64,000 nucleotides of DNA from an uncultured Clostridia bacterium. Its GTDB lineage: Bacteria > Bacillota > Clostridia > TANB77 > CAG-508. The stretch spans positions 24,847-88,846 of the forward strand of contig CAKOVI010000001.1 of NCBI GenBank assembly GCA_934121905.1, in the 5' to 3' direction. This document shows positions 596-3,364 of the stretch, in pieces. Below the pieces are notes generated by a model. That model had not been told where the DNA came from and searched no databases. It saw only the letters and a program-made list of their open reading frames with translations. The translations under genes were made by a program, and so were the position numbers. Every line of letters starts with the position of its first letter. Within the stretch, counting starts at the first letter, position 1.

Positions 596-1141
596 ATGAA
601 TATAATAGAATCAGAGATAAGACAAATTTTTGCATCAATAGTATGGAACCATAAAATTCATGAAAAACATAGTGATATTAATTCTTTTTGGTTTAATGTT
701 TTAGAATTTTGCAAGATATTATCTTCAGCAATTACTACATCAGGATTATTAACTTGCTTTTTTATTGATGAAGTTGCTTTAAAGATAATTACCACTGTTT
801 TTTCAGCTATATCTCTATTTATAAATACTTTTTATAAAACATATAATTTAAAAGAATCAAGAGATAGTCATAAATTAAGCGCATTAGAATTTTTACAATT
901 AAAAAATGAAACCATTTGTGTATTATCAGATATAAAATTAAATAAGATAGAATTGGATGAAGCTACTAAGAAGAGAGATGAGATATTATTAAAATATCAT
1001 AATATATGCAAGAAAAGCTTATCTACATGTGATAGAGCTGTAAAAAAAGCATCAAATGCTTTAAAAATACAAAAAGATAATACATTTTCAGATGAAGAAA
1101 TAGATAGCTATTTACCTGTAGAGCTTAGAAAGGGAAAATAA
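596..1141 (+). CDS. SLATT-like two-transmembrane effector protein (SMODS-associated)
   Basis: 181 aa with two hydrophobic helices (FWFNVLEFCKILSSAITTSGLLTCFFI; ALKIITTVFSAISLFINTFY) and a charged helical tail. RBS TAGGAGG lies 7 nt upstream. The stop abuts the next ATG (TAAATG at 1139..1144). Confidence 0.55.
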   Translation: MNIIESEIRQIFASIVWNHKIHEKHSDINSFWFNVLEFCKILSSAITTSGLLTCFFIDEVALKIITTVFSAISLFINTFYKTYNLKESRDSHKLSALEFLQLKNETICVLSDIKLNKIELDEATKKRDEILLKYHNICKKSLSTCDRAVKKASNALKIQKDNTFSDEEIDSYLPVELRKGK

Positions 1142-2440
1142 ATGATTAAAGATGATTTTTGTGATTTCTGTAACAACATAAAACTAGATAATTTTGAAGA
1201 TATGAAAACAACAGTAAAAGGCATTACAAAAAAACTAAATAAACATTATTATGACATAGATGATGACGAATCTAATATGTATATTGTAGGTTCAGTTGGT
1301 AGAACTACAGCAATAAAAAATACAAGTGATTTGGACATACTTTTTAATCTACCTAAGAGTGTTTATGATAGAATAAATGATAATGATGGAAATAAACAAT
1401 CTCAATTATTACAAGAAGTAAAAAATGTATTGAAAGAAAAATATCCTAATACAGACTTAAAAGGTGATGGACAAGTTGTAGTAATAAACTTTACAAAATA
1501 CACAGTAGAATTAGTTCCAGGATTTAAGCAAAATGATGATTCACTTAAATATCCAGATACAAATGATGGAGGAAGCTGGAAGATTACAAATCCAATTCCA
1601 GAAATAGACGAATGTAAGAAAAAAGATGATGACACAAATGGAAATTTTACAAATATATGTCATATGCTTAGATCATGGAAAAACAAAAAAGGATTTAAAT
1701 TTAAAGGCTTATTAATTGACACTTTGACTAATAATTTCCTTGAAAAGAAGAAGGAATATCAAAATTGTGGATATGAAAATTATTTAAATCTAGTTAAAGA
1801 TATTTTTGAGTTTTTAAAGAATGAAGATAAAGATAAGAGTTATTGGTTTGCAATAGGAAGTAATCAAAAAATATATAATGATGATGGAGGAAAATTCGTA
1901 AAAAAAGCCACAAAAGCTTATAACAAAATTAAAGATTTAAATGAGGATTCTAAAAATTTAAATAAAGAATTAAGGAATCTTTTGGGAAAAGAATTTCCTA
2001 AAGCACAAAATGAGGAAGAAGAAAAAGAACAATACGCTTATGATCATACAGAAGAATTTATTGAAGATGAATATCCTGTTGATGTAGTATTAAATTTAAA
2101 ATTGGATTGTATAGTAACACAAGATGGATTCCGCCCAGCTAGTTTAAGGGATATGATAACAAATCATGTGCTTCTAAAGAGGGATAAAAAATTAGAATTT
2201 TACATAGTAAATAAAGCAGAAATTATGAATTATGGTATAGATAAAATTCTTTGGAAAGTAAAAAACGAAGGAGATTTAGCTAAACAAAAAAACGATATTA
2301 GGGGACAAATTTTAGAAACAAATAGTTATACACATACTGAATATTCTAAATTTGATGGTGACCATTATGTTGAAGCATATATAATAAAAAATGATGTATG
2401 TATAGCTAAAGGAAAAATTGATGTTCCAATAAGGGTTTAA
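1142..2440 (+). CDS. SMODS/CD-NTase-type nucleotidyltransferase with an extra C-terminal domain
   Basis: 432 aa with a pol-beta NTase signature GSVGRTTAIKNTSDLDILF (G-S ... DxD), plus about 130 aa of C-terminal extension. Translationally coupled to the SLATT gene. Confidence 0.6.
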   Translation: MIKDDFCDFCNNIKLDNFEDMKTTVKGITKKLNKHYYDIDDDESNMYIVGSVGRTTAIKNTSDLDILFNLPKSVYDRINDNDGNKQSQLLQEVKNVLKEKYPNTDLKGDGQVVVINFTKYTVELVPGFKQNDDSLKYPDTNDGGSWKITNPIPEIDECKKKDDDTNGNFTNICHMLRSWKNKKGFKFKGLLIDTLTNNFLEKKKEYQNCGYENYLNLVKDIFEFLKNEDKDKSYWFAIGSNQKIYNDDGGKFVKKATKAYNKIKDLNEDSKNLNKELRNLLGKEFPKAQNEEEEKEQYAYDHTEEFIEDEYPVDVVLNLKLDCIVTQDGFRPASLRDMITNHVLLKRDKKLEFYIVNKAEIMNYGIDKILWKVKNEGDLAKQKNDIRGQILETNSYTHTEYSKFDGDHYVEAYIIKNDVCIAKGKIDVPIRV

Positions 2441-2461
2441 AAGAAAGCGAGAAAATATAAG

Positions 2462-3364
2462 ATGAATTTTGAATTAAATTTAATAGAGAATTCATATGAT
2501 TATATTAAAGAAACATTATACTATTATAAAAAGATAGGATATGGTGAAAGCCATGATGAAGATAGAAATTCTATAGAAGAAAAAAGAAAGTGGAAAACAA
2601 CATTTATATTATTGGTTCAAGCAATTGAATTACTATTAAAAGAAGCTCTGTTTAGAATTAACGAAAGTTTGATTTATGAAAATATTGATGAGAAAATTAG
2701 CGATAAAGCAAAAACTATAACATATTCGAAATCGATAGCAAGATTGCAAAATTTAAAGCCAAAATTGTTTTCACAAAATGAAACTGATTTATTGATTACT
2801 TGTGGTAATATAAGAAATAATTTTATTCATTTTAAAGTAAATGCTAATTCGATTGAAATAAAAAGAAAATATTGTAAGTTATTTGAGCTTTATATAAAAT
2901 TACACTATAGAATTTTTCACCATAAATATCAAAATGAAGAATATAAATATGTTATTGAGAATATTTTACATAATGCAAAGGATTTTGAGGTTTTTAGAGG
3001 AATTGAGTTTACTAAAAAACAATTAAAACAGTTTAAAGAGGATATTGAGGAAAATCAATACTATTCGTATATACTTACAAAAGATAATAATGCATATAAG
3101 AGAATAAAATATGGAGATGAAGACAAATTTTATAATTATAAGTTCAATACGAATGATTCATATTATTCAATTGATTGCAAGTACTGTGGCGATTGTGGAG
3201 CTAAAAAAGGAGAAATTCATCTAGATGGATGTGACTGGGAAATGTGTCCTATATGTGGGCATCAATTAATATCATGTGATTGTGAATGGGGTGAATATAT
3301 TTCTGATGACTATTTACTTGAAAATGATATAAGAGATATTATAGATTATGAAATGATTATATAA
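2462..3364 (+). CDS. HEPN-like helical protein with a C-terminal Cys-rich zinc ribbon
   Basis: 300 aa with an R-x4-H motif in GNIRNNFIHF. C-terminus is CKYCGDCGAKKGEIHLDGCDWEMCPICGHQLISCDCEW. It starts 21 nt after the NTase gene on the same strand. Confidence 0.4.
   Translation: MNFELNLIENSYDYIKETLYYYKKIGYGESHDEDRNSIEEKRKWKTTFILLVQAIELLLKEALFRINESLIYENIDEKISDKAKTITYSKSIARLQNLKPKLFSQNETDLLITCGNIRNNFIHFKVNANSIEIKRKYCKLFELYIKLHYRIFHHKYQNEEYKYVIENILHNAKDFEVFRGIEFTKKQLKQFKEDIEENQYYSYILTKDNNAYKRIKYGDEDKFYNYKFNTNDSYYSIDCKYCGDCGAKKGEIHLDGCDWEMCPICGHQLISCDCEWGEYISDDYLLENDIRDIIDYEMII

What the first reader, a model, noticed from the sequence alone, without database searches (positions are those of the whole stretch)
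596..3364. SLATT + SMODS nucleotidyltransferase pair followed by a HEPN-like zinc-ribbon gene
A two-TM SLATT-like gene is translationally coupled (TAAATG) to a pol-beta-type NTase with G-S...DxD. This is the minimal architecture of nucleotide-second-messenger, CBASS-like abortive-infection systems. A third gene starts 21 nt downstream and combines an R-x4-H HEPN-like motif with an 8-Cys ribbon. That suggests a second, RNase-type effector or sensor. I do not recognise this as a standard CBASS layout.
Basis: partly seen in the sequence, partly recalled or inferred. Interest (0 to 1): 0.5.

Follow-up and report, generated by a model that had tools for sequence, protein, structure and literature searches.

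The report
CBASS pair plus separate HEPN gene
The three genes are real, but they are two separate anti-phage modules sitting side by side on a mobile element: an ordinary two-gene CBASS system and a stand-alone HEPN RNase-like gene with a zinc-binding tail, not a new three-gene CBASS layout.

Summary
All three ORFs exist at the stated coordinates. Gene 1 (596-1141) is a SLATT_4 two-TM effector. Gene 2 (1142-2440) is a SMODS CD-NTase with a fused AGS-C domain and an intact GS...DxD site. Together they form a standard Type I CBASS, an architecture already validated experimentally in the literature.

Gene 3 is not a CBASS component by comparative evidence:
- None of 71 loci with more distant CD-NTase homologues carries it.
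- An 88%-identical CBASS pair lacks it.
- A sister element holds an unrelated gene in that slot.
- Gene 3 relatives at 86%, 75%, 74%, 68% and 55% identity or less sit in about 35 loci with no CD-NTase or SLATT and no conserved neighbour.
- DNA homology to the "CBASS-only" and "gene-3-only" loci breaks inside the 21-nt spacer (2446/2449).

Gene 3 is best read as a single-gene defence candidate. It resembles PADLOC PDC-S64 and the validated HEC-08 (DUF3644-type HEPN plus zinc fingers). The locus opens a defence island that also carries type I R-M, AbiL and QatABCD.

The zinc module is unannotated, has no PDB fold match, and also occurs as roughly 90-aa phage proteins.

The parts
1..353 (-). N-terminal 117 codons of a tyrosine integrase, cut by the window edge. 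It marks the left end of the integrative element whose first cargo is the CBASS pair.
   Evidence: Translation. Near-identical loci L001/L002/L055/L064 carry Phage_int_SAM_3 + Phage_integrase genes at this position.
561..588 (+). Candidate extended -10 promoter (TGATATAAT, 561-569) and AGGAGG ribosome-binding site (583-588) upstream of the SLATT gene.
   Evidence: Read directly from the sequence. DNA homology to the CBASS-only locus L060 starts at 553, so it includes this element. The promoter scan as a whole is at chance level in this AT-rich DNA (41 found against 38.7 expected), so this is an inference.
596..1141 (+). SLATT_4 two-transmembrane CBASS effector (181 aa). The TM hairpin is at about residues 38-80 (nt 707-835).
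   Evidence: Pfam SLATT_4 6.7e-40; NCBIfam SLATT_4 1.4e-29; PADLOC 2TM effector PDLC00696 6.4e-51. Hydropathy.
1142..2440 (+). CD-NTase (432 aa). SMODS catalytic domain at residues 3-161 (nt 1148-1624), with G50 S51 and D63-x-D65 (nt 1289-1294 and 1328-1336). Fused Ig-like AGS-C domain at residues 302-431 (nt 2045-2434).
   Evidence: Pfam SMODS 1.8e-39 and AGS_C 1.6e-38; PADLOC cyclase PDLC00796 2.9e-161 over the full length. Catalytic residues invariant in 14 homologues of 56-88% identity.
2441..2461 (+). 21-nt spacer that is the joint between two independently mobile modules. It contains a weak RBS for gene 3.
   Evidence: blastn shows that the CBASS-only locus L060 is homologous to window 553-2446. 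The gene-3-only locus L147 is homologous to 2449-3396. Sister element L064 is homologous to 1-2433 and again from 3384.
2462..3364 (+). Stand-alone HEPN plus zinc-module protein (300 aa). HEPN four-helix domain at about residues 1-155 (nt 2462-2926), with R118-x4-H123 (nt 2813-2830). A middle alpha/beta linker follows. The zinc module is at about residues 208-276 (nt 3083-3289), with C242, C245, H253, C257, C262, C265, C272 and C274.
3367..3391 (.). Bidirectional intrinsic terminator hairpin shared by gene 3 and the convergent DUF6076 gene. It is the only terminator-like site between 300 and 4700.
   Evidence: 2 sites found, one per strand, against 0.5 expected. The hairpin travels with gene 3 in L147, where homology runs to 3396.

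Best explanation
Two independent anti-phage modules lie next to each other as cargo beside the integrase of an integrative element. That element carries a defence island with type I R-M, AbiL and QatABCD further on.

Module A (596-2440) is a Type I CBASS. On infection the CD-NTase, whose AGS-C Ig-like domain probably tunes phage sensing, makes a cyclic oligonucleotide. The nucleotide activates the SLATT two-TM protein, which permeabilises the membrane and aborts the infection.

Module B (2462-3364) is a single-gene HEPN ribonuclease-type defence candidate. The N-terminal DUF3644-like HEPN domain (Rx4H) is the RNA-cleaving effector. The C-terminal two-zinc module is the regulatory or sensing part.

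Here module B sits as a promoter-less cassette with its own RBS and terminator. It is probably transcribed by read-through from the CBASS promoter, but it does not depend on the CBASS signal.

Shown: domain identities, fold, motif conservation, modular gene linkage and recombination joints.

Inferred: nucleotide signalling, membrane killing, RNase activity, the role of the zinc module, and co-transcription.
For: Domain hits for SLATT_4, SMODS+AGS_C and the PADLOC CBASS cyclase/2TM effector models. The CD-NTase active site is intact. HEPN fold and invariant Rx4H.

Evidence that the two modules are separate:
- Among 71 metagenome loci with CD-NTase homologues of 45-62% identity, 59 keep an adjacent SLATT and 0 have gene 3. 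Of these, 53 have at least 900 nt downstream.
- L060-L063 (CD-NTase 88%, SLATT 91%) have a Schlafen-like helicase downstream instead.
- L064 has the same element backbone and a CD-NTase of 84% identity, but an unrelated 294-aa gene in the slot.
- Gene 3 homologues lack any CD-NTase or SLATT at 86% (L147), 75% (L050-53), 74% (L056-59), 68% (L145) and 55% or less (L007-L028, L148-149). This holds by tblastn, by custom HMMs at E<=1 with positive controls, and by Pfam on 90 neighbours.
- No neighbour family is conserved around gene 3; the most widespread is found in 3 of 23 loci.
- Homology breakpoints fall at 2446/2449 and 3384/3396.

Neighbours of gene 3 homologues are often defence genes, such as type I and type IV restriction, PDC-S18/S22/S04 and SoFic.

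Precedent from the literature: HEC-08, a DUF3644 HEPN with C-terminal zinc fingers, defends as a single gene and needs the H of Rx4-6H (10.1101/2024.01.29.577857). Type I CBASS operons with AGS-C and SLATT effectors also defend (10.1101/2023.05.21.541620).
Against: The three genes are tightly packed on one strand. There is no terminator between them and a single terminator after gene 3.

The trio is co-inherited within one lineage down to 85% (CD-NTase) and 78% (gene 3) identity, and across different backbone variants. In L006 the DUF6076 gene is only 34% identical.

The ligand of the C-terminal module is unknown, so a response to the CBASS nucleotide cannot be formally excluded.

No biochemical activity was tested for any of the three proteins.
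Confidence: 0.78

Rival explanations
1. The three genes form one functional unit in this lineage. The HEPN-zinc protein would be an accessory of the CBASS system: a second effector activated by the cyclic nucleotide, or a regulator that trims the signal or the transcripts.
For: Same strand, 21-nt gap, no intervening terminator. The trio is retained in L001-L006, L054, L055 and L065-L071 at 78-99% identity. The function of the C-terminal domain is unknown.
Confidence: 0.1
2. Gene 3 is a toxin-like addiction or stabilisation gene of the mobile element, or an anti-plasmid gene of the Ishtar type, rather than an anti-phage gene.
For: The best structural matches are HEPN toxins of toxin-antitoxin pairs. 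Gene 3 sits next to recombinases or IS elements in several loci. Ishtar proteins (N-terminal DUF4145/DUF3644 HEPN plus an uncharacterised C-terminal domain) clear plasmids (10.64898/2026.07.06.735840).
Against: No conserved partner gene such as an MNT or other antitoxin lies next to gene 3 homologues. The neighbourhood is enriched in phage-defence genes. The closest profile matches are PADLOC phage-defence candidates.
Confidence: 0.1
3. Gene 3 is a housekeeping or regulatory RNA-binding protein with no role in conflict systems, and its position here is a coincidence.
For: There is no experimental data for this family. HEPN domains also occur in non-defence proteins (PMC3710099).
Against: The family is small and patchy (69 clusters). 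Its location varies, often on mobile elements and beside restriction or defence genes. The catalytic Rx4H is strictly conserved.
Confidence: 0.02

Closest known systems
Type I CBASS with a CD-NTase-AGS-C fusion and a SLATT/2TM effector (for example the EcCdnF04-SLATT6 operons; Millman 2020 classification as used in 10.1101/2023.05.21.541620)
   Same: A two-gene operon of a SLATT two-TM effector plus a SMODS CD-NTase with a C-terminal AGS-C. There are no Cap2/Cap3 or HORMA/TRIP13 genes. It hits the PADLOC CBASS cyclase and 2TM effector models over their full length.
   Different: The host is a low-GC gut Clostridia-type organism rather than gammaproteobacteria. The gene order is effector first. 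The SLATT subfamily is SLATT_4. The CD-NTase clade was not assigned here, and no solved structure is detectable by sequence.
[quoted passage not shown]
   Same: The same architecture logic: a DUF3644-like HEPN with Rx4-6H at the N-terminus, whose best PDB match includes SO_3166/5YEP. A Cys-rich C-terminus with no structural match. A stand-alone gene inside defence regions.
   Different: The window protein does not hit the HEC-08 HMM. Only a distant family member (P0063) does, and only over the HEPN part (1.3e-8). The C-terminal zinc module is a different, single, roughly 70-aa unit.
PADLOC phage-defence candidate PDC-S64 (untested candidate family)
   Same: This is the best defence-database match: E 2.5e-14 for the window protein and 1e-13 to 3e-19 for six other family members.
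   Different: The match covers only profile positions 2-224 of 339 at best, and 2 to about 140 for most members. That is the HEPN half, so the C-terminal parts differ. No paper mentioning PDC-S64 was found.
EC042_2821/DUF3644 HEPN family of Anantharaman et al. 2013 (PMC3710099)
   Same: A HEPN family with a conserved Rx4-6H, reported fused to zinc ribbons and embedded in R-M or defence contexts. A weak DUF3644 profile match is seen for the window protein and its relatives.
   Different: The DUF3644 matches are below Pfam's threshold for the window protein. The described fusions (wHTH, REase) are absent here.
MNT-HEPN toxin-antitoxin pairs (7ae2, 5yep, 8xdj)
   Same: These are the top structural neighbours of the HEPN domain. 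Gene 3 lies directly downstream of a pol-beta-fold nucleotidyltransferase, which superficially resembles an MNT-HEPN pair.
   Different: The upstream NTase is a full CD-NTase with AGS-C, not a small MNT. Gene 3 homologues elsewhere have no adjacent NTase. Gene 3 also carries an extra 145-residue C-terminal region.

Membership tests
Type I CBASS | CD-NTase (SMODS) gene with an intact GS...DxD catalytic site | tested here: met
   SMODS 1.8e-39; PADLOC cyclase 2.9e-161. G50, S51, D63 and D65 are invariant.
Type I CBASS | Adjacent effector gene of a recognised CBASS effector class | tested here: met
   SLATT_4 6.7e-40; PADLOC '2TM effector' 6.4e-51. It abuts the cyclase gene (TAA then ATG). The pairing is conserved in 59 of 71 diverged loci.
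Type I CBASS | No Cap2/Cap3 (type II), HORMA/TRIP13 (type III) or other signature accessory genes | tested here: met
   The flanks are an integrase upstream, and gene 3, DUF6076, HTH_17 and replication genes downstream.
Type I CBASS | Cyclic oligonucleotide synthesis on infection, and effector-dependent phage defence | not testable with these tools
   This needs biochemistry and phage challenge. Related architectures are validated in the literature.
CBASS accessory or effector gene (gene 3 as part of the system) | Linkage to the CD-NTase conserved across diverged homologous loci | tested here: not met
   0 of 71 CD-NTase loci at 62% identity or less carry gene 3. CBASS at 88% identity occurs without gene 3, and gene 3 at 86% identity occurs without CBASS. 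About 35 gene-3 loci have no CD-NTase or SLATT.
CBASS accessory or effector gene (gene 3 as part of the system) | A recognisable cyclic-nucleotide sensor domain (SAVED, CARF, STING, Cap15-type barrel and the like) | tested here: not met
HEPN superfamily | Four-helix up-down HEPN fold | tested here: met
HEPN superfamily | Conserved Rx4-6H catalytic motif | tested here: met
   R118 and H123 are invariant in 28 sequences down to 24% identity.
HEPN superfamily | Metal-independent RNase activity | not testable with these tools
PADLOC PDC-S64 | Full-length match to the family HMM | tested here: inconclusive
   The match is significant (2.5e-14) but partial: profile positions 2-224 of 339. Relatives match only positions 2 to about 140-194.
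HEC-08 | Match to the HEC-08 HMM (PDLC04162) | tested here: not met
   There is no hit for the window protein at E<=1. Only the distant relative P0063 hits, at 1.3e-8 and over the N-terminus only.
MNT-HEPN toxin-antitoxin | A conserved adjacent small MNT nucleotidyltransferase antitoxin | tested here: not met
   No NTP_transf_2 or other conserved partner appears among 90 neighbours in 23 loci.

The most novel reading that the evidence does not exclude
The C-terminal module of gene 3 has the pattern Y-x-R-I-x-x-G ... C-x-x-C ... H ... C-D-x-E-x-C-P-x-C-x-x-Q ... C-x-C. It may be an undescribed, widespread two-zinc domain shared between a HEPN defence family and roughly 90-aa phage-encoded proteins. 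In the defence protein it could act as the infection sensor, for example by binding the same partner as the phage protein or by pairing with it. The phage copies could then be triggers or decoy inhibitors. This would be a new sensor-domain class for single-gene HEPN immunity.
Probability: 0.15. Interest if true: 0.6.

Novelty: new member of a known kind. Interest (0 to 1): 0.25.

Why it matters
The main value is corrective. The apparent 'three-gene CBASS' is a junction of two cassettes, which shows how tight operon-like packing in defence islands can mimic functional coupling.

The locus gives a clean natural example of modular cargo exchange next to an integrase. The same slot holds gene 3, an unrelated gene, or a helicase in sister loci.

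The HEPN-zinc family is small, at about 69 clusters, and untested. It extends the HEC-08 / PDC-S64 type of single-gene RNase defences into gut Clostridia.

Its zinc module is found in about 1,400 protein clusters, including phage proteins. It has no Pfam model and no structural match, so it is a reasonable target for domain annotation and for testing as a sensor.

Tried and rejected
- **MNT-HEPN-like pairing of the CD-NTase with gene 3.** Rejected, because gene 3 relatives never have an adjacent NTase.
- **The L064 slot-3 protein as a divergent gene 3 or another HEPN.** hhalign probability was 0.6% and there were no Pfam or PADLOC hits. No relationship was shown.
- **Separate acquisition detected by composition.** GC and GC3 of the three genes are indistinguishable from the rest of the element, so this is uninformative.
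- **Promoter scan.** The hit count is at chance level in this 27% GC DNA. It cannot decide whether gene 3 has its own promoter; a 10/12 match at 2358-2385 is noted only as a candidate.
- **Sequence search of the PDB.** No hit for the CD-NTase, and only noise for the gene-3 profile.
- **Megablast of window 1-20000 against the phage collection.** No match, so the element is not a catalogued phage.
- **Genome scan with alignment A1.** The 28-sequence alignment was too divergent for the scan. It was repeated with the 20 closer sequences.
- **Literature search for 'PDC-S64'.** No papers found.
- **L074 and L075.** These at first looked like exceptions. L074 has an IS605-type transposase-like ORF inserted in the CD-NTase. 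L075 is a frameshift-ridden copy of the same cassette.
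Full report
**1. The observation**

The window holds three same-strand ORFs at exactly the reported coordinates: 596-1141 (181 aa), 1142-2440 (432 aa) and 2462-3364 (300 aa). The first stop codon (TAA, 1139-1141) abuts the second start codon (ATG, 1142-1144). Gene 3 starts 21 nt after the second stop. The only terminator-like hairpin between 300 and 4700 is a bidirectional one at 3367-3391, immediately after gene 3.

**2. Genes 1 and 2**

Gene 1 matches Pfam SLATT_4 (6.7e-40, full profile), NCBIfam SLATT_4, and the PADLOC CBASS '2TM effector' model (6.4e-51). 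It has two hydrophobic segments at about residues 38-57 and 60-80.

Gene 2 matches SMODS (1.8e-39) at residues 3-161 and AGS_C (1.6e-38) at residues 302-431. It also matches a PADLOC CBASS cyclase model end to end (2.9e-161). G50, S51, D63 and D65 are invariant among 14 homologues of 56-88% identity.

No Cap2/Cap3 or HORMA/TRIP13 genes are nearby. This is therefore a Type I CBASS.

The literature held here says that about 40% of Type I CBASS CD-NTases carry the Ig-like AGS-C fusion. It also reports that Type I operons with AGS-C cyclases and SLATT effectors, such as EcCdnF04-SLATT6, restrict phages strongly (10.1101/2023.05.21.541620). The pair is thus a standard, already known layout.

In 71 diverged metagenomic loci (CD-NTase 45-62% identity), a SLATT homologue is adjacent in 59. 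This confirms the two-gene core.

**3. Gene 3**

Pfam gives nothing significant for gene 3. PADLOC gives PDC-S64 (2.5e-14, profile positions 2-224 of 339) and a weak DUF3644 hit.

The family is small: 69 clusters among 5.8 billion proteins, mostly Clostridia and other Bacillota.

In a 28-sequence alignment reaching down to 24% identity, the invariant residues fall into two groups:
- Q53, E56, L57, L58, K60, R94, R118 and H123. R118 and H123 form the RNNFIH (Rx4H) motif.
- R214, followed by C242, C245, H253, C257, D258, E260, C262, P263, C265, C272 and C274.

C239 is not conserved, however, and H253 is. The conserved ligand set is therefore 7 Cys plus 1 His, enough for two zinc sites (an inference).

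**4. Is gene 3 part of the CBASS?**

I tested linkage from both sides.

*From gene 3:*
- Loci with gene 3 at 92-100% identity are the same element and carry the trio: L001-L006 and L065-L071. So do L055 (89%) and L054 (78%).
- The 86% homologue (L147) lies between a metallo-beta-lactamase-fold gene and an iron alcohol dehydrogenase.
- The 75% homologue (L050-53) lies between a rhodanese gene and an unknown/AAA_15-AAA_21 pair.
- The 74% homologue (L056-59) lies beside a LysM/amidase gene.
- The 68% homologue (L145) lies beside AAA_14/DUF4143 and an IS110 transposase.
- None of the 22 genome loci at 55% identity or less has a CD-NTase or SLATT.
- Custom profile HMMs for this CD-NTase and SLATT subfamily find nothing at E<=1 in any of these 35 loci, while positive controls score 1e-56 to 1e-216.
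- Pfam on 90 neighbours shows no SMODS, SLATT or NTase among recurrent families.
- No neighbour family recurs in more than 3 of 23 loci.

*From the CBASS:*
- Zero of 71 diverged CD-NTase loci contain gene 3 within 5 kb. Of these, 53 have at least 900 nt downstream.
- The 88%/91%-identical pair in L060-63 is followed by a Schlafen-type helicase.
- L064 has the same backbone (integrase, DUF6076, HTH_17, Phage_rep_org_N, IstB) and a CD-NTase of 84% identity. Its slot holds an unrelated 294-aa protein.

*DNA-level homology makes the joints explicit:*
- L060 matches window 553-2446.
- L147 matches window 2449-3396.
- L064 matches window 1-2433 and resumes at 3384.

The 21-nt spacer is therefore a recombination joint between two cassettes. 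Gene 3 travels with its own RBS and terminator.

**5. What gene 3 most likely is**

Neighbours of gene 3 homologues often include defence genes: type I and type IV restriction, SoFic, mad3/5 and several PDC candidates.

In this window gene 3 opens a defence island made of these parts:
- the CBASS pair;
- gene 3;
- type I R-M (7105-13307);
- AbiLi/AbiLii (14898-16761);
- QatABCD (16865-21540).

[quoted passage not shown] HEC-08 defends as a single gene, and defence is abolished by mutating the H of Rx4-6H (10.1101/2024.01.29.577857).

DUF3644 was assigned to HEPN, and its EC042_2821 family was reported fused to zinc ribbons in R-M contexts (PMC3710099). Ishtar proteins, with a DUF4145/DUF3644 HEPN plus an uncharacterised C-terminal domain, act against plasmids (10.64898/2026.07.06.735840).

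The window protein itself does not hit the HEC-08 HMM, and it covers only the HEPN half of PDC-S64. I therefore call it a relative with the same design, not a member of either family.

My mechanistic proposal is inferred: a HEPN RNase is held inactive until the zinc module senses an infection cue, and it then cleaves RNA to abort infection. Expression here is probably by read-through from the CBASS promoter region, which has an extended -10 (TGATATAAT) at 561-569. The promoter scan is at chance level in this AT-rich DNA, so this remains open.

**6. Residual case for coupling**

The trio is compact and persists across some divergence, including with a different DUF6076 backbone in L006 (34% identity). 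The ligand of the C-terminal domain is unknown. I give the coupled-system reading about 0.1.

**7. By-product**

A phmmer search with residues 200-280 against 1.84 billion representatives finds 1,410 clusters at E<=1e-3. Most are 60-200-aa proteins, and some carry two or three tandem copies.

Twenty-seven IMG/VR viral contigs encode roughly 90-aa stand-alone versions with the pattern MAKCxxCGREML...GC...Y-R-I...CGDCGA..GG.HH.GCDCERCP.CGGQ. One of them, L159, lies 1.8 kb from a large terminase gene.

The module has no Pfam or PHROG family. It is a widespread unannotated zinc domain shared by a defence family and by phages. What it does is unknown. A sensor, decoy or trigger relationship is speculation.

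**8. Verdict**

The interpretation as a novel CBASS layout is not supported. What is present is a known Type I CBASS next to an independent HEPN-zinc single-gene defence candidate of a known design. Interest is low to moderate (0.25).

Noticed in passing
window 7105-21540: The element carries a dense defence island downstream of the finding. It holds type I R-M (hsdM 7105-8673, hsdS 8606-9844, hsdR 10281-13307) and AbiLi/AbiLii (14898-16133 and 16120-16761; PADLOC 5.8e-89 and 1.9e-28). It also holds a complete QatABCD (16865-18745, 18749-19432, 19377-20819, 20821-21540; QatA 4.6e-97, QatC 1.7e-99, QatD 8.2e-57).
   Followed up: partly
window 3083-3289 (gene 3 residues 208-276); also L029-L049, L150-L176, P0190-P0335: The zinc module of gene 3 is a widespread unannotated domain, with 1,410 clusters at E<=1e-3. 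It occurs mostly as 60-200-aa stand-alone proteins and sometimes in 2-3 tandem copies (P0197, P0241). It has no Pfam or PHROG family and no PDB fold match.
   Followed up: partly
L150-L176 (IMG/VR contigs), e.g. L159 5265-5540 and L150 5926-6198: Phage contigs of 15-190 kb encode roughly 90-aa proteins made of an N-terminal CxxC...GC element plus the same zinc module. In L159 the gene lies between amidoligase and gamma-glutamyl cyclotransferase 'host takeover' genes and the large terminase gene. A possible trigger, decoy or shared-partner link with the HEPN defence family was not tested.
   Followed up: partly
L064 3588-4472: In a sister element (CD-NTase 84% identical, same backbone) the slot after the CD-NTase holds an unrelated 294-aa protein. 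It has an N-terminal Cys cluster and no Pfam or PADLOC hit. It may be another uncharacterised cargo or defence gene.
   Followed up: partly
window 3391-4440 (-), 4590-6142 (+): The element backbone next to the cargo consists of a DUF6076 protein (2e-12) convergent with gene 3, followed by an HTH_17 excisionase-like gene, a Phage_rep_org_N-like gene and an IstB/DnaC-like ATPase. The same order is seen in L001, L002 and L064. The function of DUF6076 is unknown.
   Followed up: no
L074 about 1045-2511: One copy of the CD-NTase (87% identity) is interrupted after residue 285 by an ORF that resembles an IS605-type OrfB/TnpB transposase by eye. This would be an inactivated CBASS.
   Followed up: no
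L039, L043, L045 (Sneathiella, Psychromonas): Distant relatives keep the same HEPN N-terminus (LLVQAVELLLK ... RxxIxHHEF) but carry a different Cys-rich C-terminus (CGWCGN...CLICGE...CERC...CLEC). This suggests the zinc domain is swapped on a constant HEPN effector.
   Followed up: no
window 55459-55535 (+): A skipping-rope RNA (Rfam RF02924) scores 45.7 bits, above its gathering score of 36.7. It is unrelated to the finding.
   Followed up: no
window 39420-47078 (+): A giant 2,552-aa protein carries a glucoamylase-like domain and GH94 supersandwich and catalytic domains (cyclic beta-1,2-glucan synthase or phosphorylase-like). A choloylglycine (bile salt) hydrolase lies at 22853-23827. Both fit a gut Clostridia host chromosome.
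   Followed up: no
L083 6854-7685: One diverged CBASS locus shows a second, shorter CD-NTase-like ORF (HMM 2.1e-51) right after the SLATT gene. It may be a duplicated or truncated cyclase.
   Followed up: no
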